64,000 bases of DNA from a virus. Taxonomy: Duplodnaviria; Caudoviricetes. The position numbers were made by a program, and so were the translations under genes. The notes beneath the pieces are model-generated. The model was not told the origin of the DNA. It made no database searches and was given only the letters and a program-made list of their open reading frames with translations. Below, piece after piece: positions 3,313 through 61,990 of this stretch (the first letter of the stretch is position 1; the number at the start of each line of letters is the position of its first letter). The stretch is from IMG/VR virus record IMGVR_UViG_3300021412_000003, positions 4,929 to 68,928 of that record; one strand, 5' to 3'.

Positions 3313-3572
3313 TGGCACAGTCGTACAAGAGGGATCGCAGGGGCCGATTCGCCAGAGTAGGCGGCCTTCGGGCCAAGATTCGCGGGAAGCTTATTGGCCC
3401 CAAGCTCACTCGCGAACAGCGAATCGCGAAGGGCCGAGAGAAGAGCCATCAGCGTCTTCTCAAGAAAGGCTATGAAGTCTCCAATCAGTACACGTACAAG
3501 GGAGACTCTAGAGGTCGTCGTCGAGCCGACGGCAAGTATGAGCACAGCGTGAAAGAGTATCGAAAGAAATGA
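3312..3572 (+). CDS. Basic protein with RDxxGRF motif
   Basis: MAQSYKRDRRGRF; translationally coupled. Confidence 0.75.
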   Translation: MAQSYKRDRRGRFARVGGLRAKIRGKLIGPKLTREQRIAKGREKSHQRLLKKGYEVSNQYTYKGDSRGRRRADGKYEHSVKEYRKK

Positions 3573-37192: not shown

Positions 37193-39124
37193 ATGGCCAA
37201 GAAGATACGGGTAGAAAAGTACCGGAATGAGATCCGGGTGTACTGCCCATGGAGCGAGAACGGCCCGCGTGCGTGCAAGTCGGTGCACGGGGCATCCTGG
37301 AATCCGAAAGAGAAGTGCTGGACCTATCCGCTGTTGTGGCAGATCTGTCTGGAGATCCGATCCAAGATTGCTACGCCACTCGGCATGGATCTGGAGATCG
37401 GGGAGGAGATGAGTGAATGGGCGCATGCCGAAAAGGCTCGTCAGGCCACCATCCCCGACGTATTAGGTTTGGAGGCTGTGACACTGGACCGCCTCCCGAC
37501 TTTGAATCCGGTACTTTTTGGTGCAGCATCGAGTCGGCCCTTCCAGACTGTTGGGATCAAGTTCGGAGCGATGAACCGAGAGGTTCTGCTGGCGGATGAC
37601 CCCGGTCTCGGAAAGACCATGCAAACCATCGGGATGTTTCAAGAGGCGAACGTGACCGGCCCGATCCTGGTGGTGGCTCCCAAGGCTGCGGCCATGATCA
37701 CCTGGCCGAACGAGATCCGGAGATGGACGGATAACGAAGAGGTATTCGTCTTCAGCGCGGACATTCCGGTTGGCAGGCGCAATGACCGGATTCGTACGAT
37801 CTTCGAGAAGGCGTGGATACATCAGGACCGTAGATTCTGGGTGATCATCAATCCGTACTGGTTGCGGGCGGATGTGAAGCTGAACGACTACGGCAAGTAT
37901 GAGAGGGATGACAAGGGATACAAGATCATCACCAGCAAGCTCCCCTCGATTTTTGAGAAGCCCTGGGCTGGCGTCGTAGTAGATGAGTCCCATACTACTC
38001 TCGCGGGCAGCACTGGCAATGCGAAGAAGTGGTCGCAACAGCGTCGAGGTCTTGGAGCGGTAGTTTTGAAGCCGAACGGGATTCGGGTGGCTATCTCTGG
38101 AACTCCATTCCGGGGCAAGCCAGAGAATCTGTTCGGAACCCTGCAATGGCTGCGACCGGATCTCTACACTTCCTACTGGAAGTGGATCGGTCGGCATTTC
38201 CAGACCGAGAGCGATGGTTATACGCAAGTCATCACCGGCGGCATCATCAGCGAGAAGGCTTTCTACGACGAGGCTGCCACCGTGATGATTCGCCGCACGA
38301 AGGATCAAGTTGCCCCGGATCTTCCGCCAAAGATGTACGGCGGAGAGCCCCTGGACAAGGAGAATCCGGACAGCGTGGTGGGTGTGTGGCTGCCCATGGA
38401 GAAGAAGCAGGCCACTCAGTACGCAGCCATGGCGAAGGCTGCCGAGGCAGAGATCGAAGGCGGGCGTCTGGAAGCCATCGGCATCCTGGCGGAGATGACC
38501 CGCCTGAAGCAGTTCTCCAACTCTGCTATGTCTGTGGAGTTTGACAAGAAAGGCGAACCCAAGTACAAGCCGATACTTCCCAGTAACAAGGTGGAATGGA
38601 TCGAGGAGTTTCTCTCTGAACGAGATCTGGTGGGTCGAGGGGCCAAGGGAACGAGCAAGCTGATCATCGCGAGTCAGTTTACTGGCTTTCTCAATATGCT
38701 CGGTGGTCACCTGGACAGCATAGGAGTGGAATACTACAAGCTTACGGGTGAGACAAACGACAAGGAGCGAGTTCGCATTGCGGACGAGTTCCAGAATAAT
38801 CCGGATAGCGCCAAGGTGTTCGTCCTGAACACCCGCGCTGGCGGTGTCTCGCTTACGCTGGACGCGGCTGATGACGTGATCATCTGCGATGAGACGTGGA
38901 TCCCGGACGATCAGTTGCAGGTAGAGGATCGCGCGCACCGATTGTCTCGCATAGATCACAACGTGACAATCTGGTACTTGCGAAGCCTCGGGACAATTGA
39001 GGAAGGCATCGGAGCGACCACTACGGAAAGAGAAAAAGTATGCCGAGGCCTAATCGACGGAACAAGAGGCGTGGATTTTGGGAAGCAATTCTTGACTTCC
39101 TCGAGGAGATCTTCACATGATTGA
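37193..39124 (+). CDS. SNF2-family DNA helicase
   Basis: LADDPGLGKT, VDESH, SGTP, SLTL..AD, QVEDRAHR; AGGAGGTG RBS. Confidence 0.92.
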   Translation: MAKKIRVEKYRNEIRVYCPWSENGPRACKSVHGASWNPKEKCWTYPLLWQICLEIRSKIATPLGMDLEIGEEMSEWAHAEKARQATIPDVLGLEAVTLDRLPTLNPVLFGAASSRPFQTVGIKFGAMNREVLLADDPGLGKTMQTIGMFQEANVTGPILVVAPKAAAMITWPNEIRRWTDNEEVFVFSADIPVGRRNDRIRTIFEKAWIHQDRRFWVIINPYWLRADVKLNDYGKYERDDKGYKIITSKLPSIFEKPWAGVVVDESHTTLAGSTGNAKKWSQQRRGLGAVVLKPNGIRVAISGTPFRGKPENLFGTLQWLRPDLYTSYWKWIGRHFQTESDGYTQVITGGIISEKAFYDEAATVMIRRTKDQVAPDLPPKMYGGEPLDKENPDSVVGVWLPMEKKQATQYAAMAKAAEAEIEGGRLEAIGILAEMTRLKQFSNSAMSVEFDKKGEPKYKPILPSNKVEWIEEFLSERDLVGRGAKGTSKLIIASQFTGFLNMLGGHLDSIGVEYYKLTGETNDKERVRIADEFQNNPDSAKVFVLNTRAGGVSLTLDAADDVIICDETWIPDDQLQVEDRAHRLSRIDHNVTIWYLRSLGTIEEGIGATTTEREKVCRGLIDGTRGVDFGKQFLTSSRRSSHD

Positions 39125-39407
39125 GATGATTGCGGCCTTCATCTCCATCGCGGTCACTTCGGTTGTGGGCACTTCTTCGTACTACCGATGGCGAGTTCGT
39201 CCTAGGTGGGAAAAGAAGGCTATCAGAGCTTGGTATCCACCGGCCGACATGGGCGATGCGATGTTCCCTCGAGACGAGGAGCTGGAACGCCTGGCCGCTG
39301 CCCGTGAGCTGCACGATAGCGGCCGGTTGCACCCGCCTAGGGCCGATTCTGGTCGGCCCGCACGTATCTATCGTGCCCGTACTCGAGGTAAACGATCAAC
39401 GCTTTAG
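39117..39407 (+). CDS. N-terminal TM protein
   Basis: Hydrophobic N-terminus. Confidence 0.5.
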   Translation: MIEMIAAFISIAVTSVVGTSSYYRWRVRPRWEKKAIRAWYPPADMGDAMFPRDEELERLAAARELHDSGRLHPPRADSGRPARIYRARTRGKRSTL

Positions 39408-39542
39408 GGCGATTGTCCCAATAAAACTGCATAAAAGTTTGCAAAAGTTGCCCGAAATGGGCAGTCAATGGTGTAGGCTGTAGTAAGGCAGCAAGCGCCG
39501 AGCGTGAAAGAATGGCCGAGAGGCCCCGACTGAAGGAACGAA

Positions 39543-40004
39543 ATGGCACCATCGAACAAGGAACAACTTCAGGCTCTTACGGCCGAGGAAGTCAATCCCA
39601 CCGAGGCGCACATCTCCCTCGCCAAGTTTCTTACCGAAAACGGTCCGATCGAGATCACCGCCGATCAGGCGTGCATGTTCATTCTGGGCCACCGCATCTG
39701 GCAGTCCTCGGACGAGCGTAAGGAAGAGAAGGAAGCCCTGAAGGGCTCCCGCGCGGAAGAGGCGGAGCAGAAGCGCGCTCTGGCGGAAGCGGCTCGCGCA
39801 GCGAAGAAGGCCGAGGCCGAAAAGAGGGCGGCCGAGCGCGAAGTCAAGAAGACTCAGAAGGCGGCGAAGGACGCGGATAGCGACGACGATCTCGCTGAGG
39901 CGACCGATGAGGAGTCCCTCGAGGACACCGACGGCGAGACCTCCGAGCCGGTGGAAGAGGCCAAGCCGAAGCGGCGTCGGCGCGTCGCGGCCGGGGAGTT
40001 CTAA
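39543..40004 (+). CDS. Highly biased early protein, paralogue of 29893
   Basis: AAGGAAC RBS; charged helical C-terminus. Confidence 0.75.
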   Translation: MAPSNKEQLQALTAEEVNPTEAHISLAKFLTENGPIEITADQACMFILGHRIWQSSDERKEEKEALKGSRAEEAEQKRALAEAARAAKKAEAEKRAAEREVKKTQKAAKDADSDDDLAEATDEESLEDTDGETSEPVEEAKPKRRRRVAAGEF

Positions 40005-40030
40005 GACCACCCCCTCCCTAACCCCCTCAG

Positions 40031-40384
40031 GGGACAGTAGCGGCTCGGTCTGTAAAACTGAGCGAGGCGCTGTAAGGGTGGCCGGGTCCAGGATTCAAGG
40101 GGTTGATTCCTGGGCTGCGGAGGAGATTGGGCCGAAGGTACGAAGAGGTGGAAGTCCTCAGTGTAAGCCCCAAACCCAATCTCCTCCGGAGCACCGGTTC
40201 TGCGAAGACCACTGAAGGGAAGTGCCACAGCGTATCCGCTCGAGACGAGTTACGATCGTGTGAGGTAGCGCACCTCGGGAAGGGGAATACATGCCCCTTT
40301 CAGCGACCGAGCCAATGATCTCACCGCCTCGCACGGCGGGAGCGGCGCTAGTGCTTCAGTGGTCTTCGGAGGTACCGGTTAACC
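40031..40384 (+). ncRNA. Candidate large structured ncRNA with pseudoknot
   Basis: Perfect helices 40118-40131/40175-40188 (14 bp), 40203-40217/40354-40368 (15 bp), 40042-40050/40305-40313 (9 bp, crossing), plus several hairpins; no credible ORF. Confidence 0.65.
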
Positions 40385-40696
40385 ATGGCGAACAGCCCGG
40401 AGGCAAACAAGAAAAGAATGGAGCTTCTGGTATGGGTGGACGACGGCACTCATCCAGAGGGCGGATATCCATACGCAAGTACGATTGCGCCCGAACGGCA
40501 CGGGAGCAAGTCCGTCTATGTGAACTGGGGTTGTCGGTGTCCACACTGCACACTAGCGAACACCAACGAGCAAGGAATAAGGCGACATGCAAATAGACTT
40601 GCCGCTTTTGCGGCAGAGCGAGCGCACCTGTTTTCGCAGGTGTACACAAAGATGGTGGTGGGCATATCGCGAGGGCCTCGTCCTCCGAAAGCTTGA
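40385..40696 (+). CDS. Small HG..Y..GCRC..C zinc protein
   Basis: HGSKSVYVNWGCRCPHC motif common in actinophages. Confidence 0.55.
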   Translation: MANSPEANKKRMELLVWVDDGTHPEGGYPYASTIAPERHGSKSVYVNWGCRCPHCTLANTNEQGIRRHANRLAAFAAERAHLFSQVYTKMVVGISRGPRPPKA

Positions 40697-41753
40697 TTCA
40701 GGAGCAGCCTGGTTCGGTACCGGCCTCCACGTCTGCTTGGCGGAATGGTACATCCCCGGCAAGAAGCGCGGGCGTCCTCTGCTGGAAACCTGGGCTGAGT
40801 ACACCAAGGACTCGTACGAGAAGATTCGCATTCAAGACGAGTTCGGTGACGAGGACGCCTCCACATACGAAGACGCCGTGATTCTCGGGCAAGAGATGCT
40901 CGAGATGTACGAAGAGAAGTACGGGCTGGACGAGCAGTTCGAGGTGATTGCACCCGAGCAGCGCTTCCGGGTTCTCATCCCAGACCCCGACAATCCCAAG
41001 CGGGCGATTGCCGAGAACGTAGGCACCTTCGATGCGGTAGTGCGGGATTATTCCGACGGTCGTGTCAAGATGATTGATCACAAGAGCTGCCGATTCTTTG
41101 CGTACCGGCATTTGACCCTTGACGATCAGGGCGGTAGCTACTGCGCGCTCAGCACGCACGCGCTTCGTCAAGAAGGGCTGATCGGCCCCAAAGAGGCTGT
41201 CTCGGGGATGATCTACAACTTCCTGCGCAAAGCGCGGCGGGATACCCGCCCCGAGAACGAGAAGGGCGAGAAGCTCAACAAGCCCGAGAAGAAACACTAC
41301 GCGGCGGCACTGGCAAAACATCTCGGCGATTCCGATGACAAGTGGTGGATGAAACAAACTCTGTCGGCTCTGCAAGGGGCTGCCCTTGAATATGGCCTCT
41401 CCGTTGGCGGAGACGTGAGCAAGAATCAACCGAGCCCGGTGTTCTATCGGCACTTCGTAGAGCGTACGGCCAAGGAGCGCAACCGGCAGATCGTCCGTAT
41501 CGGTGAAGAAGTTCAGATCATGAACTTGGTGCGCGAAGGCGTGATTCCGATCACCAAGAACCCGACGGACGCTTGCGCCAATCTCTGCGACTTCTTCGAC
41601 CTGTGCGAACTTGACGAGGCTGGTGGAGACACGGACGACATGAAGTCCATGATGTTCTCCGTGAGAGATCCTTACCACGACCATCGGAAAGGAGCAGAAA
41701 ACAGCAAGACCTCGGTCGCCGCCGATACTCGCAGAAAGGTTACCAGTGGCTAG
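40587..41753 (+). CDS. Cas4-like / PD-(D/E)XK exonuclease
   Basis: SERTCFRRC, GTFD...IDHKS, C-terminal C..C..C cluster. Confidence 0.85.
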   Translation: MQIDLPLLRQSERTCFRRCTQRWWWAYREGLVLRKLDSGAAWFGTGLHVCLAEWYIPGKKRGRPLLETWAEYTKDSYEKIRIQDEFGDEDASTYEDAVILGQEMLEMYEEKYGLDEQFEVIAPEQRFRVLIPDPDNPKRAIAENVGTFDAVVRDYSDGRVKMIDHKSCRFFAYRHLTLDDQGGSYCALSTHALRQEGLIGPKEAVSGMIYNFLRKARRDTRPENEKGEKLNKPEKKHYAAALAKHLGDSDDKWWMKQTLSALQGAALEYGLSVGGDVSKNQPSPVFYRHFVERTAKERNRQIVRIGEEVQIMNLVREGVIPITKNPTDACANLCDFFDLCELDEAGGDTDDMKSMMFSVRDPYHDHRKGAENSKTSVAADTRRKVTSG

Positions 41754-41937: not shown

Positions 41938-42780
41938 ATGACCCATCCCAGCATCATTTCGCTTGAGGATGAAGAAGACAAGGTCAACCTTCTCGTCTAC
42001 GGGAAGTCCGGTGTCGGAAAGACCGTGTGGGCCGGTAGCGCAGACAACGTTCTGTTCCTCGCTCCGGAGGATGACGGCACCATTTCCGCCAAGCGGCGGG
42101 GCTCCAAGGCGAAGAAGTGGAAGATTCATGACTGGGGAGATCTCATGGAGGCCCTGGAGTGGCTGGAGGACAATCCGGACCATGGTTTTGACGTGATCTG
42201 CATTGATTCCATCACGCACATGCAGCAGATTCTGCTCCGTCACATTCTTCAAGTGGTGGTGGAGGAGAAGCCGGACCGCGATCTGGACATTCCGGCGATC
42301 CAGGACCATCAGAAGTGGCAGAACATGTTCAAGCGATTCGTTCTGCGCTTCAACGCGCTGCCCGTGAACGTGGTGTGGACGGCCCTGGTTCGCAACGAGA
42401 CAGACGAAGAGGGAAACGACTTCCTCACGCCCGACATCCAGGGCAAGGGCTATCAGATGTCCCAGACTATCTGCTCGTACATGACGAGTTATGGCTGTTT
42501 GCAGGCCAAGCGAGTCAAGATCAAGAACCCGAAGGAAGGAGGTCCGGAATACACGATCGTCCGTACGATCATCTGGGAGGACACCGGCGTCGTTCAGGGC
42601 AAGGATCGTACCGGCGCACTGGCCCCGTCCACTCGTAATAAGACTCTGCAGGAAGTCTTGGACGCGGTCTTCCCGTCCGTTGGCGGAGTTGCCACAGATC
42701 GTAAGCCCCGTCTGGGATCCACAAGGGTCAAATCCACCCGCGTCTCTGCCTCCACGGCAGTAGAGAAAGTTGAGGCGTAA
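41938..42780 (+). CDS. AAA_24 / Sak4-like ATPase (recombination)
   Basis: Walker A YGKSGVGKT, Walker B ICIDSIT, KDRTG. Confidence 0.85.
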   Translation: MTHPSIISLEDEEDKVNLLVYGKSGVGKTVWAGSADNVLFLAPEDDGTISAKRRGSKAKKWKIHDWGDLMEALEWLEDNPDHGFDVICIDSITHMQQILLRHILQVVVEEKPDRDLDIPAIQDHQKWQNMFKRFVLRFNALPVNVVWTALVRNETDEEGNDFLTPDIQGKGYQMSQTICSYMTSYGCLQAKRVKIKNPKEGGPEYTIVRTIIWEDTGVVQGKDRTGALAPSTRNKTLQEVLDAVFPSVGGVATDRKPRLGSTRVKSTRVSASTAVEKVEA

Positions 42781-43589: not shown

Positions 43590-43677
43590 TGTGTCCGAAC
43601 TGCTACCATTCTACCCATATGCATGGGCAGATGGGTTGCATCCTCTGTAAATGTACAAATACAGGGAATAATACCTG

Positions 43678-43902
43678 ATGAAATACTTCCGCACAAAGCT
43701 TCACTATCAGCCTCGTCCATCCGAGGCGATCACCTGGCTGTATGCCCACAAGCACACCTCGCGAGGTTCGAAAGAGATCAAGATCGGGATGTGCTGGCAC
43801 CAGCAGTCCACGATGCTAACTCACTGGTTCGTGTGGGGTGCTCGTCACTCGGATAACAAGTGGCTGAAGGGCGAGCATGAGAGGCTCCATGTGAGCCAGT
43901 GA
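43678..43902 (+). CDS. Hypothetical protein
   Basis: TGATG coupling. Confidence 0.5.
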   Translation: MKYFRTKLHYQPRPSEAITWLYAHKHTSRGSKEIKIGMCWHQQSTMLTHWFVWGARHSDNKWLKGEHERLHVSQ

Positions 43903-43905
43903 AAT

Positions 43906-44022
43906 AGGCGGTGGTCAATCTGTGACTTCAAAACCGCAGGGCCTCGAGGTAACGATCAGAGTGAGCGCGCTAGCGAGGATTGGGCGCGGACCGACCCTCA
44001 TTCGCTCTGATGACCACTGCCT
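43906..44022 (+). ncRNA. Structured RNA / 5' leader
   Basis: Helices 43906-43917/44011-44022 and 43955-43965/44001-44011; inner CGCGC/GCGCG hairpin. Confidence 0.5.
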
Positions 44023-44046
44023 TCCAACTACAAAAAGGAGGTGAAT

Positions 44047-44124
44047 ATGGGTTCTAACGATGCCAGCATTGGCATTCTGTTGCTCCAACTGCTGAAGTAC
44101 ATGCAGACCGGTAGCGGCAACTGA
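44047..44124 (+). CDS. 25-aa peptide MGSNDASIGILLLQLLKYMQTGSGN
   Basis: Near-perfect AAGGAGGTGA RBS. Confidence 0.55.
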   Translation: MGSNDASIGILLLQLLKYMQTGSGN

Positions 44125-44162
44125 TCTATAAAGTTCGGTCATCATACCCTCATCAGGTATTG

Positions 44163-44192
44163 CGGGGATCGGTTAGACGACGCCGGTCCCCG
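44163..44192 (+). terminator. 10-bp hairpin after peptide gene
   Basis: CGGGGATCGG / CCGGTCCCCG. Confidence 0.45.
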
Positions 44193-44282
44193 TTCCTAGA
44201 ATATATGACAGGTCGGATTGGCCCCTAAATGCCCTCGGGTATGGTAGGCTGATATAACCTGTTAGGTTTGGAAAGGCGAATT

Positions 44283-58817: not shown

Positions 58818-61655
58818 GTGGGTGATGTGAAAACGCAAGTGAGAAATATGATCAGTGGGAAGCCGTTTAAACTCACAGCCTTAGAGTATCACAGGCGTGG
58901 ATGGTTTCCGTTCCCTCTGCCTCCCCGGGACAAGTTTCCGCCACCGGAAGGTGCGACCGGCAAGAAAAATCCTATCCTAGAAGATCCCCTGGCCCAAGTC
59001 ACTGAGTATCTCGGTGAGCATCCGCACGACAGCAACGTCGGTCTGCGCATGGACCACAACGTCATCGGCATCGATGTAGATCATTACGACGACAAGCATG
59101 GCGCGGACGAACTGGCGGAATTGGAGAAGAAACTCGGGAAACTTCCCTCGACGTGGGTCTCTTCCGCCAGGACGGATGGCCATTCTGGCATCCGTTTCTT
59201 CCGTATTCCCAATAGTTTCCTTCCCGGTACAAAGCTGGGCGGGAAACACGGCTTGAGTTTTAGTGGCAAGGCTGCCAACGCTATTGACGTGGTGCAGTAC
59301 GCCCACCGTTACGCTATGGTGGGTCCAAGTTGGCACCCTGGGGTAGGTGCCGAGGTGCGCTGGTTTGCCCCAGACGAACCCTTGGATCGAATCCCTAGCG
59401 CCTACCGCACCATCCTCCGCCACAAGAACGTATCTAGGTCTGAGCCCGGAAGTAAGATCGGGACGGTCGATTCCGGGGGCGCTCGATCTACGCATCGAGT
59501 CTCGGTGGTTCGTTTCATCCGGGAAGAAACCAGCATCAAAATCCCGTACGTGGATGAGCTACCAGATCTCCCCGCCCCCTGGGTGGAGTTCCTCTCGCGT
59601 GGATATATACGAGATGATCTCAAGGCTCGAGATATCACCAGTTCCGAGCGAGAGCTGCTCAACTGGGCGGCTCAGAACTTCCCGGGCGGTAAGTCTGCGG
59701 CACCTTGCAAGACCGTTCGCAAGGCTGCGGCTACGCACAAGGAACGGATGAAGACCGGTGAATCTTCACACGACAAGATCGTGGAGATGCACTGGAATAT
59801 CTACAACTATGCGCTCGAAGGACATCGCGGTTCTCTGCTCTCTTCCGCCAGGCTGGAGAAGGTTTGGACCCGCACCGTTCTCAAGGGTAACCAGGTCCAC
59901 GGACAGAAGCGCCATCTCACTGAAGCCAGCGGAGAGATCTTCCGTAGCCGAGTGGAAGCCCTTCGCAAGATCAAGGGCATGGCTGACGAAGTCATCGAGG
60001 ACGGGGGCAACCCGTTCAAGACTCAGTGCACTTGCCATGACGAGGAGGAGACCAATCGGGAACTGGAGCAGGCGGGCATCCCCAGTGGCATCGGCCAGAT
60101 CAAGGATCTGGAGGAGTATGACCACAGCGACCGGGGCCGGGCTGAGATCTACCGGGATATGTTCACCACCGAACGCATCAAGGTGGTGGGTAGCGGCGAT
60201 ACCTCTAAGTGGTATTTCTGGAAACTGGACGGCACTGAGTTCGGCTGGCGACAAGACAACGACCTGGCCATGCGTCTCGTGGAGGCAATCTCCAAGGCGT
60301 ACAAGACCAAGTACAACCAGCTCATGCAGAAGTATCGGGAGCAGAATCTTGCTGAAGATCCAGAAGCAAAACTCACCATTGCCGAAGCCAAAAGGTTTCG
60401 CTCTCTGTATGAGATAGCGGGCAACGCCGCCACGATCAAGAACTGTCTGACAATGCTGGGCACCCTGCCCGAGGTTCGGGTGGAGGATACCTTCTTCGAT
60501 CATAAGCCGCATCTCCTGGGCTTTGAGGATGGCGTGGTCGAGTTGCTTCCTGGACAGCCCTGGAAGTTCCGCCAGAAGACGTTTGAAGATCGTGTGAGCA
60601 TGTCCGTCGGTCGTCCATTCACTGGCAAAAGCCTCCGTGAGCTGGCAGATGCGCGCGATCCTGGGTATCTGGCTCTTCTGGATTATCAGAAGACCTTCGT
60701 CCCGGACCTGGATCTGTGGCATTTCGTACAGGCCGTGCTCGGCTATACACTGTACGGCGGCAACCCTTCTCGTCAGATCTACTTCTTCCATGGCGAATCG
60801 AGCACCGGTAAGTCCATGCTTGTGAACGCTCTGCAGAAGGCTCTCGGCCCGTATGGAGGTAGCTCGAATGGAGATGTCTTCAACGACAAGGATGGTGGCC
60901 GCAACCCCGAAATCATGAAGACTCGGGGTAAGAGACTGGTTCAGCTGCCCGAGTTTGGCGACGGACACTGGATTACGAACGATAGCCTCAAGCGCCTGGC
61001 GTCCGAGGATATCCTCTCGGTTCGTGACAACTACGCCAAGAGCGATCAGATCGTGGAGTTCCAGCAGACGGCTACCTTCATTGGACCCACCAACTCAGTG
61101 CCTCGAATCAATGGTATCGACACGGCGGTGAAGCGTCGCATCGTGGCCGTGCCATTCGATCAGGTGATGCCGGATGCGGAATTGGACCTGGACAAAGCCA
61201 ATTTCTTGGCAACTCAGGGACGAGATGCCGTGATCGCATGGGCTTTGGAAGGATGGAACGCCTACTCCGCCACTGGCGGCGGTGTACTCCGCTCTACCAA
61301 TTGGCCTTCTGCGGTGACCAAGCGTACCAAGGAATTCATCGGCGAGATGTCTACTATTGGTGAGTTCGTGGAGGATTATATCCTAGTCACGGATAAGCCA
61401 GAGGATAAACTGTCGGCGAAGATGGCGTTCTCTCGCTATCAGATATGGGCAGAAGAGCAGGGCACCCACGAGAGTAAGCGCCTCGACCAGCGTAGATTGT
61501 CTCGAGCCATTGCGGATTACACCGGGAAAAAGAGCCAGATGGTTCGCAATGGGAAGTCCACCGAGCGTGGATGGAGTGGTGTACGGCTGACCGGTGGAAA
61601 CTCGAGAGTCAACGGAAGGGGATTCGAAGTAGTGACGGACCAAAAGACGCAATAA
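58818..61655 (+). CDS. Bifunctional primase-polymerase fused to SF3 (D5-like) helicase
   Basis: FPLPPRDKFPP, NVGL...IGIDVD; Walker A GESSTGKS; C-terminal winged helix. Confidence 0.9.
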   Translation: MGDVKTQVRNMISGKPFKLTALEYHRRGWFPFPLPPRDKFPPPEGATGKKNPILEDPLAQVTEYLGEHPHDSNVGLRMDHNVIGIDVDHYDDKHGADELAELEKKLGKLPSTWVSSARTDGHSGIRFFRIPNSFLPGTKLGGKHGLSFSGKAANAIDVVQYAHRYAMVGPSWHPGVGAEVRWFAPDEPLDRIPSAYRTILRHKNVSRSEPGSKIGTVDSGGARSTHRVSVVRFIREETSIKIPYVDELPDLPAPWVEFLSRGYIRDDLKARDITSSERELLNWAAQNFPGGKSAAPCKTVRKAAATHKERMKTGESSHDKIVEMHWNIYNYALEGHRGSLLSSARLEKVWTRTVLKGNQVHGQKRHLTEASGEIFRSRVEALRKIKGMADEVIEDGGNPFKTQCTCHDEEETNRELEQAGIPSGIGQIKDLEEYDHSDRGRAEIYRDMFTTERIKVVGSGDTSKWYFWKLDGTEFGWRQDNDLAMRLVEAISKAYKTKYNQLMQKYREQNLAEDPEAKLTIAEAKRFRSLYEIAGNAATIKNCLTMLGTLPEVRVEDTFFDHKPHLLGFEDGVVELLPGQPWKFRQKTFEDRVSMSVGRPFTGKSLRELADARDPGYLALLDYQKTFVPDLDLWHFVQAVLGYTLYGGNPSRQIYFFHGESSTGKSMLVNALQKALGPYGGSSNGDVFNDKDGGRNPEIMKTRGKRLVQLPEFGDGHWITNDSLKRLASEDILSVRDNYAKSDQIVEFQQTATFIGPTNSVPRINGIDTAVKRRIVAVPFDQVMPDAELDLDKANFLATQGRDAVIAWALEGWNAYSATGGGVLRSTNWPSAVTKRTKEFIGEMSTIGEFVEDYILVTDKPEDKLSAKMAFSRYQIWAEEQGTHESKRLDQRRLSRAIADYTGKKSQMVRNGKSTERGWSGVRLTGGNSRVNGRGFEVVTDQKTQ

Positions 61656-61686: not shown

Positions 61687-61990
61687 CACAGATAGTGTAG
61701 CGATGTGTGTCAGACGTGTAGCGATGGCATTGACACACTATCTGTGCAGGTAGAGGCGTTAGAAACGTCCGATGTAGCGATGTAGCGCTATCCGACCCCA
61801 CCTTTTATACATGGGCGTTTTTATACGGGGCAATGCGTGTAGGAACTGCTGATATTTTTACCTACACGTATAAGTCAACAGTTACATCGCTACATCGCTA
61901 CAAATACAGTTAAGAGAGGGTTCTACCAGGGGATATGGGTGTAGCGATGGTGCTGTTTTAAGCGCTACACAAGCGCTACACATCGCTACA
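61687..61990. repeat. Origin-like field of TGTAGCG(AT) repeats in both orientations
   Basis: About 5 TGTAGCG and 5 CGCTACA copies, 12-bp inverted repeat 61687-61698/61735-61746, AT-richer core; directly after primase-helicase. Confidence 0.75.

What the first reader, a model, noticed from the sequence alone, without database searches (positions are those of the whole stretch)
40031..40384. ~350-nt non-coding region folding into a multi-helix, pseudoknotted RNA
Seen: a long gap with no credible ORF in an otherwise gene-dense genome. It contains perfect helices CGGAGGAGATTGGG/CCCAATCTCCTCCG (14 bp), CGAAGACCACTGAAG/CTTCAGTGGTCTTCG (15 bp, extended by ACCGGT/ACCGGT) and GGCTCGGTC/GACCGAGCC (9 bp). 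The last two cross each other. Local hairpins include CCAGGA..TCCTGG, GAGGT..ACCTC, AAGGGG..CCCCTT and CCGCC..GGCGG. An alternative fold gives a tRNA-Tyr-like anticodon arm (TCGGT-CTGTAAA-ACTGA). I do not recognise RNase P, tmRNA or group I/II core motifs. It lies just upstream of the Cas4-like nuclease / recombination operon. Inference: an unclassified large phage ncRNA or ribozyme.
Basis: partly seen in the sequence, partly recalled or inferred. Interest (0 to 1): 0.78.

Follow-up and report, generated by a model that had tools for sequence, protein, structure and literature searches.

The report
Conserved double-hairpin RNA leader in actinophages
The 380-base gap is real and strongly structured, but it is a chain of modular hairpins built around a two-hairpin motif that a clade of actinobacterial phages, including cultured mycobacteriophages, keeps in front of their recombination genes; it is not one large ribozyme-like RNA.

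Summary
Window 40005-40384 has no conserved ORF. Its two long helices are the top two inverted repeats in the 64-kb window, and it folds far better than shuffles (z -6.5).

The interpretation needs revising. Ten close metagenomic relatives and about 160 distant ones show a modular chain of hairpins on the coding strand. Only about 105 nt are widely conserved:
- P1 (40088-40113), a GC-rich hairpin.
- H1 (40114-40192), a long hairpin that abuts P1. Its base carries GGUGGAG/CUCCUCC around an invariant U.U mismatch (A-U in this phage).

This P1-H1 motif was found once in each of the six genomes searched in full. In every locus examined it lies between a Lys/Ala-rich protein gene and the Cas4-like exonuclease operon. 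It is also present in cultured Mycobacterium cluster D and Gordonia Lambovirus phages. Fourteen of 18 H1 pairs covary.

H2's 136-nt interior, H1's interior and the proposed pseudoknot are unique to this phage. No Rfam family matches.

It may act in processing, read-through or translation control; none of these was tested. It is not a large ribozyme-like ncRNA.

The parts
39543..40004 (+). Upstream gene p153. Small N-terminal domain, Lys/Ala/Glu-rich middle, basic patch (KPKRRRR), acidic tip ending in Phe.
   Evidence: A gene of the same make-up ends 27-257 nt before H1 in every H1-bearing locus examined. Its only family match is phrog_10024, function unknown. Pfam, PDB, NCBIfam and the Atlas gave nothing.
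40008..40080 (+). Lineage-restricted 5' domain. A closing helix (40008-40012 with 40076-40080) encloses the small hairpin P0a (about 40022-40033) and P0b (40038-40072), whose 7-nt loop CUGUAAA lies at 40050-40056.
   Evidence: Seen in the MFE fold. The domain is 83% identical in L004/L005/L079 only. P0b-like hairpins with a YUGUAAA loop also occur in L004 and L011 with partly compensated stems. The domain is absent from L006-L009.
40088..40113 (+). P1: GC-rich hairpin with a GGGG apical loop (40099-40102). It ends directly at the foot of H1.
   Evidence: In 19 of 19 loci a hairpin ends 0-2 nt before H1. The stem sequences all differ, and the loops are often G-rich.
40114..40192 (+). H1: the conserved long hairpin.
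- Lower stem 40114-40118 with 40188-40192, containing a G.G mismatch.
- Core 40119-40125 with 40181-40187.
- Upper stem 40126-40131 with 40175-40180.
- Lineage-specific interior 40132-40174.
   Evidence: CM R1 scores 59.2 bits (E 7e-14) on the + strand and 38.7 bits on the - strand; it is the only significant hit in the window. On the family alignment 93% of cells pair, 14 of 18 pairs change on both sides, and 0/500 shuffles reach this. RNAalifold predicts the same helix with two 1x1 loops.
40193..40199 (+). Linker containing the palindromic hexamer (40193-40198). It can pair with its second copy at 40374-40379.
   Evidence: direct repeat D1.
40200..40371 (+). H2: diverged tandem copy of the H unit. 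The arms are 40200-40217 and 40354-40371; the 136-nt branched interior (40218-40353) is unique to this phage.
   Evidence: H2 has the same lower stem and G.G mismatch as H1. It differs from H1 by 7 pair positions changed on both sides, all still Watson-Crick. Its 3' arm and downstream sequence align with the 3' arm of the single unit of L004. The interior has no homologue in any locus. R1 does not detect H2 because the core sequence is lost.
40368..40387 (+). Shine-Dalgarno GGAGG (40368-40372), half buried in the foot of H2, and the ATG (40385) of the next gene.
   Evidence: Read directly from the sequence. The same arrangement is present in L004 and L006. In all loci the last hairpin ends 10-43 nt before a start codon.
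40385..40696 (+). Small CxxC protein gene (103 aa) that bounds the gap. It overlaps the exonuclease gene by 110 nt.
   Evidence: Conserved in L004, L006-L009 and L012, with substitutions concentrated at third codon positions, e.g. 10/6/24 and 20/13/41 at positions 1/2/3.
40587..41753 (+). Cas4-like PD-(D/E)XK exonuclease, first large gene of the recombination operon. A Sak4-like gene follows at 41938-42780.
   Evidence: Pfam PF12705 and phrog_1218; phrog_124 for the next gene.

Best explanation
The gap is the sense-strand intercistronic leader of the recombination operon. It is made of stackable hairpins.

- P1 is a GC-rich hairpin that abuts H1.
- H1 is an 18-23-bp irregular helix whose base carries GGUGGAG/CUCCUCC with a fixed 1x1 mismatch, plus a second 1x1 mismatch in the lower stem.
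- The apical part of H1 tolerates any insert.

The motif occurs once in each genome searched in full and acts in cis on the polycistronic mRNA. In this phage's lineage the H unit has duplicated in tandem (H2), and extra hairpins were inserted 5' of P1 and inside the units. That is why the gap is 380 nt rather than about 90 nt.

Mechanism (inferred, not shown): the conserved helix is read by a protein or enzyme. My first choice is a double-strand-specific endonuclease of the RNase III type. It would separate the upstream and downstream cistrons and leave protective hairpins, so setting the level of exonuclease/Sak4 expression. In this lineage the foot of the last unit also half-covers the ribosome-binding site of the next gene.

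Odds: about 0.75 that it is a cis-acting plus-strand RNA structure; about 0.3 that processing is the specific mechanism.
For: 1. Pairing is selected.
- In an unbiased scan, 20 of 25 exact-core arm pairs on the + strand have at least 5 of 6 adjacent pairs, with 13 or more different stem sequences. The figure is 0 of 6 on the - strand.
- On the seed alignment 94% of cells pair, and on the model-fitted alignment 93%. 13-14 of 18 pairs change on both sides; 0/500 shuffles reach this, and slid controls pair at 38-55%.
- RNAalifold finds the same helix independently.
- H2 differs from H1 by 7 fully compensated pair changes.

2. The structure is strand-specific.
- There are 16 G.U cells against 6 A.C cells.
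- The U.U mismatch is present in 24 of 24 sequences.
- CM scores are 20-45 bits higher on the + strand. All genes lie on the + strand.

3. Position is fixed.
- The motif is always downstream of the p153-type gene.
- P1 abuts H1 within 0-2 nt in 19 of 19 loci.
- The last hairpin ends 10-43 nt before a start codon.

4. It is single-copy in the window and in 5 of 5 complete relatives.

5. It spans deep divergence, with neighbouring proteins only 40-50% identical. It is present in Mycobacterium phages Helpful, PBI1 and Hawkeye and in Gordonia phage LuckyLeo.

6. No sigma-70-like promoter lies between the helicase gene and the exonuclease, and no + strand terminator-like site was found. The operon is therefore most simply co-transcribed through the element.

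7. Helix length (18-23 bp with 1x1 loops) fits what is established for RNase III substrates such as the T7 intercistronic sites (textbook knowledge, not tested here).
Against: - There are no expression data, so no transcript ends or cleavage sites are known.
- RNase III reads little sequence, so it does not by itself explain why seven helix nucleotides and the U.U mismatch are invariant across such divergence.
- A single site per genome differs from the many dispersed sites of T7.
- G.T wobbles are also tolerated in single-stranded DNA hairpins, so the strand asymmetry does not formally separate RNA from plus-strand ssDNA.
- Ribosome-binding-site occlusion applies only to the window's own clade; in Helpful, for example, the start codon lies 30 nt downstream of the hairpin.
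Confidence: 0.55

Rival explanations
1. Transcription gate. P1-H1 is an attenuator or a put/nut-like antitermination site at the boundary between the helicase block and the recombination/replication block. It would act on RNA polymerase directly or through a phage factor.
For: - One site was found in each genome searched in full, at a module boundary.
- Two hairpins separated by 0-2 nt recall the two-stem put RNAs of HK022 (from memory).
- Some members have a U-rich run after H1: L056, L059 and L080.
- Invariant helix nucleotides suggest specific recognition.
Against: - Most members, including the window, have no U tract.
- No candidate antiterminator has been identified.
- There is no sequence likeness to known nut or put sites that I could test.
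- The position of the early promoter is unknown.
Confidence: 0.18
2. Protein operator. The widened groove at the U.U and G.G mismatches is the binding site of a phage protein that regulates translation or stability of the downstream genes. The candidate is the upstream p153-type protein, whose arginine-rich patch lies near its C terminus.
For: - The p153-type gene is always immediately upstream.
- A basic patch is conserved in most homologues.
- Two conserved 1x1 mismatches sit inside G-C-rich helix. This resembles known arginine-rich-motif sites such as HIV RRE (from memory).
Against: - The p153 family also occurs in loci without a detectable H1 (L024, L065).
- Several H1-bearing homologues have only a weak basic patch (L043, L062, L080).
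- p153 has no recognisable RNA-binding domain.
Confidence: 0.12
3. DNA-level element. The hairpins form in single-stranded or cruciform DNA as a replication origin, priming signal or nickase site, or the arms are inverted binding sites for a DNA-binding protein.
For: - It is single-copy and lies inside the replication/recombination module.
- The perfect helices fold almost as well on the minus strand.
- The repeated core in alternating orientation looks superficially like iterons.
Against: - Covariation in the upper and lower stems requires intramolecular pairing, not double-stranded site recognition.
- The two arms are consistently asymmetric (the U.U position), and G.U outnumbers A.C by 16 to 6.
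- A much more typical origin candidate exists elsewhere: seven exact copies of a 10-mer in both orientations at 61696-61990, just after the primase-polymerase/D5-type helicase gene.
- There is no AT-rich unwinding region here.
Confidence: 0.07
4. One reading: one free-standing large (~350 nt) pseudoknotted ncRNA or ribozyme.
For: - Very low folding energy.
- A 9-bp long-range complementarity crosses H2 (47/1000 shuffles reach it).
- No Rfam match, so it would be new.
Against: - H1's interior, H2's interior and the pseudoknot partner have no homologue in any relative.
- The closest relative lacks H2's interior and has one unit instead of two.
- Size ranges from about 90 to over 600 nt among relatives.
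- Conserved nucleotides are in a helix, not in junctions or loops as in ribozyme cores.
- There is no own promoter or terminator.
Confidence: 0.05

Closest known systems
RNase III processing sites of coliphage T7 (R0.3, R1.1 and others) and the lambda N-leader site
   Same: Irregular hairpins of about two helical turns, with internal loops, on the sense strand between cistrons of a phage early polycistronic mRNA. The apical parts are variable, and the units are related to each other by duplication.
   Different: - T7 has about ten dispersed sites; here there is one locus per genome, sometimes with tandem units.
- A seven-nucleotide helix core and a U.U mismatch are invariant here.
- An abutting P1 hairpin is part of the motif.
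- The host is actinobacterial.
- Cleavage was not tested.
Start-associated sequences and extended SAS of Cluster K mycobacteriophages (PMC3203893)
   Same: Actinophage-specific conserved inverted repeats with a variable spacer, lying just upstream of translation starts in the non-structural arm, in one orientation. Their function is unknown and was proposed to relate to translation initiation.
   Different: - ESAS consists of 17-bp imperfect repeats with a spacer of mostly 4-13 bp, tied to a 13-bp SAS, in 11-19 copies per genome.
- P1-H1 is single-copy, has a different sequence and interiors of 13-130 nt, and shows clear compensatory covariation.
put RNAs of phage HK022 (from memory)
   Same: Two adjacent stem-loops with almost no linker, acting in cis in the nascent early transcript.
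   Different: No sequence relation was shown. H1 is much longer. The position relative to a promoter is unknown. No evidence of antitermination.
Large ornate bacterial and phage ncRNAs in Rfam (GOLLD, ROOL, HEARO, OLE, raiA)
   Same: A long, highly structured non-coding stretch in a phage genome.
   Different: No model matches. Those RNAs have conserved multi-helix cores, whereas here only a double hairpin is conserved and the rest is lineage-specific.

Membership tests
Any Rfam 15 family (RNase P, tmRNA, group I/II introns, riboswitches, GOLLD/ROOL/HEARO and others) | Covariance-model score at or above the family's gathering threshold | tested here: not met
   There were 0 hits in the window and in 12 relatives at gathering thresholds. 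At E up to 10 only miRNA-type hairpin noise appeared, far below threshold.
tRNA / tRNA-like element | Cloverleaf detectable by ARAGORN | tested here: not met
   No tRNA or tmRNA in the window. Only an anticodon-loop-like 7-nt loop is present, at 40050-40056.
Intrinsic (rho-independent) terminator | GC-rich hairpin followed directly by a U tract | tested here: not met
   No + strand terminator-like site lies in 38900-41200. The sequences after H1/H2 lack a U run in the window and in most relatives; L056, L059 and L080 are exceptions.
RNase III substrate | About 20 bp or more of mostly Watson-Crick helix, internal loops allowed | tested here: met
   H1 has 18 modelled pairs plus extension, and 23-nt arms at 87% complementarity in the window.
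RNase III substrate | Staggered cleavage by the enzyme in vitro or in vivo | not testable with these tools
   No RNA data are available for this phage or its relatives.
Cluster K SAS/ESAS | 13-bp SAS next to start codons in 11-19 copies, with 17-bp inverted repeats whose spacer is mostly 4-13 bp | tested here: not met
   The motif is single-copy in the window and in 5 complete relatives. The sequence and spacing differ from those described in PMC3203893.
put-like antiterminator RNA | Two stem-loops separated by at most about 1 nt | tested here: met
   P1 ends 0-2 nt before H1 in 19 of 19 loci.
put-like antiterminator RNA | Makes RNA polymerase terminator-resistant in cis | not testable with these tools
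   This needs transcription assays.
Iteron-type replication origin | Repeated double-stranded binding sites whose sequence, not pairing, is conserved | tested here: not met
   The stems covary while pairing is kept. A separate iteron cluster lies at 61696-61990.

The most novel reading that the evidence does not exclude
P1-H1 is a new class of cis-regulatory phage RNA that a protein or RNA polymerase recognises through its invariant helix core and fixed U.U/G.G mismatches. It would switch on the recombination/replication module in a whole clade of actinobacteriophages, acting as a put/nut-like or arginine-rich-protein operator. Its hairpin units multiply by tandem duplication and accept large inserts.
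Probability: 0.3. Interest if true: 0.65.

Novelty: new variant of a known kind. Interest (0 to 1): 0.45.

Why it matters
Gene regulation in lytic actinobacteriophages is almost unexplored. Cluster D mycobacteriophages and Gordonia Lambovirus phages have no described regulatory sites.

This analysis finds a single-copy, strongly covarying RNA structure at a fixed place in front of the Cas4-like exonuclease/Sak4 recombination genes. It is shared by uncultured soil phages and by cultured phages with easy laboratory hosts (M. smegmatis mc2 155, Gordonia terrae and G. rubripertincta). A defined regulatory element is therefore directly testable by RNA end mapping and phage recombineering.

It also shows how such an element can grow. 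Relatives carry 1 to 3 or more tandem units. One unit has been rewritten by seven compensated pair changes, and the apical inserts are free to vary. Any alignment or covariance-model search for this motif should allow for these variations.

Tried and rejected
- **Nucleotide search of the phage collection** with the region: no match.
- **Single-protein scan of viral contigs**: nothing.
- **Sequencing runs**: no RNA holder listed. Only the probable source soil metagenome and small-share runs were returned.
- **Pseudoknot**: rejected as unsupported. It is not conserved and is marginal against shuffles.
- **Three-state switch idea**: a CCACC tract after the stop codon would compete for the 5' arm of H1 and free the anti-SD-like 3' arm. 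I dropped it because the tract is present only in some lineages.
- **Strict linkage of H1 to p153**: not exact. The protein family also occurs without a detectable H1. However, some such loci (L028, L029, L041) carry variant cores with the mismatch at the same place.
- **Identity of p153**: Pfam, PHROGs, NCBIfam, PDB sequences and the Atlas gave no function.
- **Second structured gap at 43.9-44.2 kb**: it does not contain the motif.
- **Literature**: full-text searches found no description of this element. One search was uninformative.
- **First count of structure pairs**: it was mis-registered by one column. It serves only as an extra slid control.

Full report
**Context.** The window is 64 kb of a 68.9-kb IMG/VR virus record. 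GC content is about 55%, and essentially all long ORFs are on the + strand. Around the finding the gene order is:
- SNF2-type helicase, 37193-39124
- a 96-aa ORF
- a 153-aa ORF (p153), 39543-40004
- the gap
- a 103-aa CxxC ORF, 40385-40696
- Cas4-like PD-(D/E)XK exonuclease, 40587-41753
- Sak4-like annealing protein, 41938-42780

The exonuclease is about 46% identical to those of Mycobacterium cluster D phages (PBI1, PLot, Helpful, Hawkeye) and Gordonia Lambovirus phages. These phages have the same gene order.

**Observation.** The 14-bp and 15-bp helices, extended to 23-nt and 18-nt arms, are the two best inverted repeats within 250 nt in the entire window. The region folds at -192.8 kcal/mol against -150.4 +/- 6.5 for dinucleotide shuffles. 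The minus strand folds nearly as well, as expected for perfect Watson-Crick helices. Rfam gives nothing at gathering thresholds and only hairpin noise below them. ARAGORN finds no tRNA.

**Relatives.** A protein search with the exonuclease found relatives at 53-82% identity. Their contigs (L004-L013) all have an uncalled stretch of 410-810 bp between the p153-type gene and the exonuclease gene.

Aligning these stretches showed two things. First, the CxxC ORF is a real conserved gene: substitutions concentrate at third codon positions. This fixes the 3' edge of the gap at 40384. Second, the non-coding part is a chain of hairpins that share the same foot:
- a lower stem with a G.G mismatch
- then GGUGGAG on the 5' side and CUCCUCC on the 3' side, which pair around a U.U mismatch
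- then a variable upper stem and an unrelated interior

Relatives carry one unit (L004, L012), two (L007, L008, L009) or three or more (L006, L011). Immediately 5' of the first unit there is always a GC-rich hairpin, P1.

**Breadth.** The same P1-H1 pair occurs in about 90 nt in Mycobacterium phage Helpful and Gordonia phage LuckyLeo, at the same syntenic place. Within cluster D the interior of H1 differs by an insertion of about 44 nt between subgroups.

In 80 distant IMG/VR loci and 80 metagenome loci fetched with an exonuclease profile, a covariance model of H1 (R1) finds the motif:
- in 26 of 89 sources in the first set, which also included the nine close-relative and annotated loci
- in 9 of 79 loci in the second set

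Hits on the gene strand score 20-45 bits above their minus-strand counterparts where those appear, and no locus is hit only on the minus strand. Detection is confined to the branch whose helicases are most like the window's.

The motif is single-copy in the window and in five complete relatives. Some loci missed by the model (L028, L029, L041) have a P1-H1 pair with a variant core but a mismatch at the same position. The structural family is therefore wider than the sequence model.

**Is the pairing selected?**
- A scan that required only the two exact 7-mers within 330 nt, with no pairing condition, gave 25 distinct candidates on the + strand. Twenty of them have at least 5 of the 6 adjacent positions paired, with more than a dozen different stem sequences. 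The 6 minus-strand candidates had none.
- On a MAFFT alignment, 94.3% of cells pair and 13 of 18 pairs change on both sides; 0 of 500 shuffles reach the observed values. Slid registers pair at only 39-53%. My first, mis-registered attempt behaves like these controls.
- The model-fitted alignment of 24 units gives 93.2% pairing and 14 of 18 pairs with double changes.
- RNAalifold independently predicts the helix with its two 1x1 loops.
- The lower stem and P1 were never used to select sequences. The lower stem covaries, and P1's stem sequence differs in every locus while the hairpin is kept; P1 ends 0-2 nt before H1 in 19 of 19 loci.

H2 (40200-40371) keeps the lower stem and G.G mismatch of the unit. 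Compared with H1 it has seven positions changed on both sides, all still Watson-Crick, and its core sequence is gone. Its 3' arm and what follows (ribosome-binding site, hexamer, start codon) align with the 3' arm of the single unit of L004. H2 is therefore a diverged tandem copy of the unit. This is the strongest single piece of evidence in this window that pairing matters in these units; the core sequence survives in H1.

**What is not conserved.** H1's interior, H2's 136-nt interior and its small hairpins have no homologue in any fetched locus. The 5' domain (40005-40087) is shared only with the L004 lineage, at 83% identity.

The 9-bp helix that would make a pseudoknot pairs the 5' domain with H2's interior. 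Its partner does not exist in L004, and its 5' strand has changed there. Between the two segments, a match of 9 bp or more arises in 47 of 1000 shuffles. I treat it as unsupported.

The anticodon-like loop sits on a hairpin (P0b) whose loop recurs in L004 and L011 with partly compensated stems. It is a minor module of unknown meaning.

**RNA or DNA, and which strand?**
- The arms are consistently asymmetric: U.U in 24 of 24 units outside the window.
- G.U cells outnumber A.C cells by 16 to 6.
- Plus-strand model scores are much higher.

This excludes symmetric double-stranded recognition and the minus strand. It does not formally exclude a plus-strand DNA hairpin. However, a far more typical origin candidate lies elsewhere. 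Seven exact copies of a 10-mer, in both orientations, occupy 61696-61990, directly after the primase-polymerase/D5-type helicase gene.

**Mechanism.** In the 19 H1-bearing loci checked (L080 excepted, where no downstream ORF start was found), the last hairpin ends 10-43 nt before a start codon. No sigma-70-like promoter and no + strand terminator-like site lie between the helicase gene and the exonuclease. The downstream operon is therefore most simply read through the element.

The conserved nucleotides lie inside an 18-23-bp helix with two fixed 1x1 loops, and the apical region is free. That points to recognition of the helix by a protein or enzyme, not to a ligand pocket or ribozyme core. 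I rank the options as follows:
1. RNase III-type processing or stabilisation
2. a transcription gate of the put/nut type
3. an operator for a phage protein, possibly the p153-type protein always encoded just upstream
4. a DNA-level role

None of these could be tested, because no RNA run holding this sequence was listed (recorded under Tried and rejected).

**Novelty.** No Rfam family matches, and full-text searches found no description. The nearest described precedent in actinophages is the SAS/ESAS repeats of Cluster K (PMC3203893). These differ in sequence, copy number and spacing, and their function is also unknown.

The more exciting reading, a large pseudoknotted ribozyme-like RNA, is not supported.

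Noticed in passing
window 61687-61990: Seven exact copies of the 10-mer TGTAGCGATG, in both orientations, with 15-bp perfect inverted repeats. They lie directly downstream of the 945-aa primase-polymerase/D5_N helicase gene (58818-61655). This looks like an iteron-type replication origin of the P4 alpha kind.
   Followed up: partly
window 40385-40696: A conserved 103-aa CxxC protein gene (motif NWGCRCPxC) overlaps the exonuclease gene by 110 nt in another frame. The overlapping frame stays open in six lineages, yet none of the gene callers of the relatives' contigs called it.
   Followed up: partly
window 39543-40004, and homologues in L002-L083: The p153 family has a Lys/Ala/Glu-rich disordered middle, a basic patch and a C-terminal acidic tip ending in Phe (GEF, DAF, APF, AAF). 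The tip recalls the protein-recruiting tails of SSB and T7 gp2.5 (from memory). No database assigns a function.
   Followed up: partly
window 43590-44267: A second large stretch without a long ORF, between the 268-aa gene and the next operon. It has its own helices and short ORFs. The H1 model does not hit it.
   Followed up: partly
window 40050-40075; L056 about 2314-2335; L028 about 2200-2220; L011 about 3320-3345: Hairpin loops or tracts containing YUGUAA (also GCGC-YUGUAAG) recur upstream of P1 in several otherwise unrelated lineages. In the window the 7-nt loop mimics a tRNA-Tyr anticodon loop.
   Followed up: partly
L012 3429-4000: In the 53%-identity relative, the stretch downstream of the CxxC ORF, before the exonuclease gene, looks by eye like coding sequence with Cys/His motifs, perhaps an inserted HNH-type nuclease gene. 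This accounts for its longer gap.
   Followed up: no
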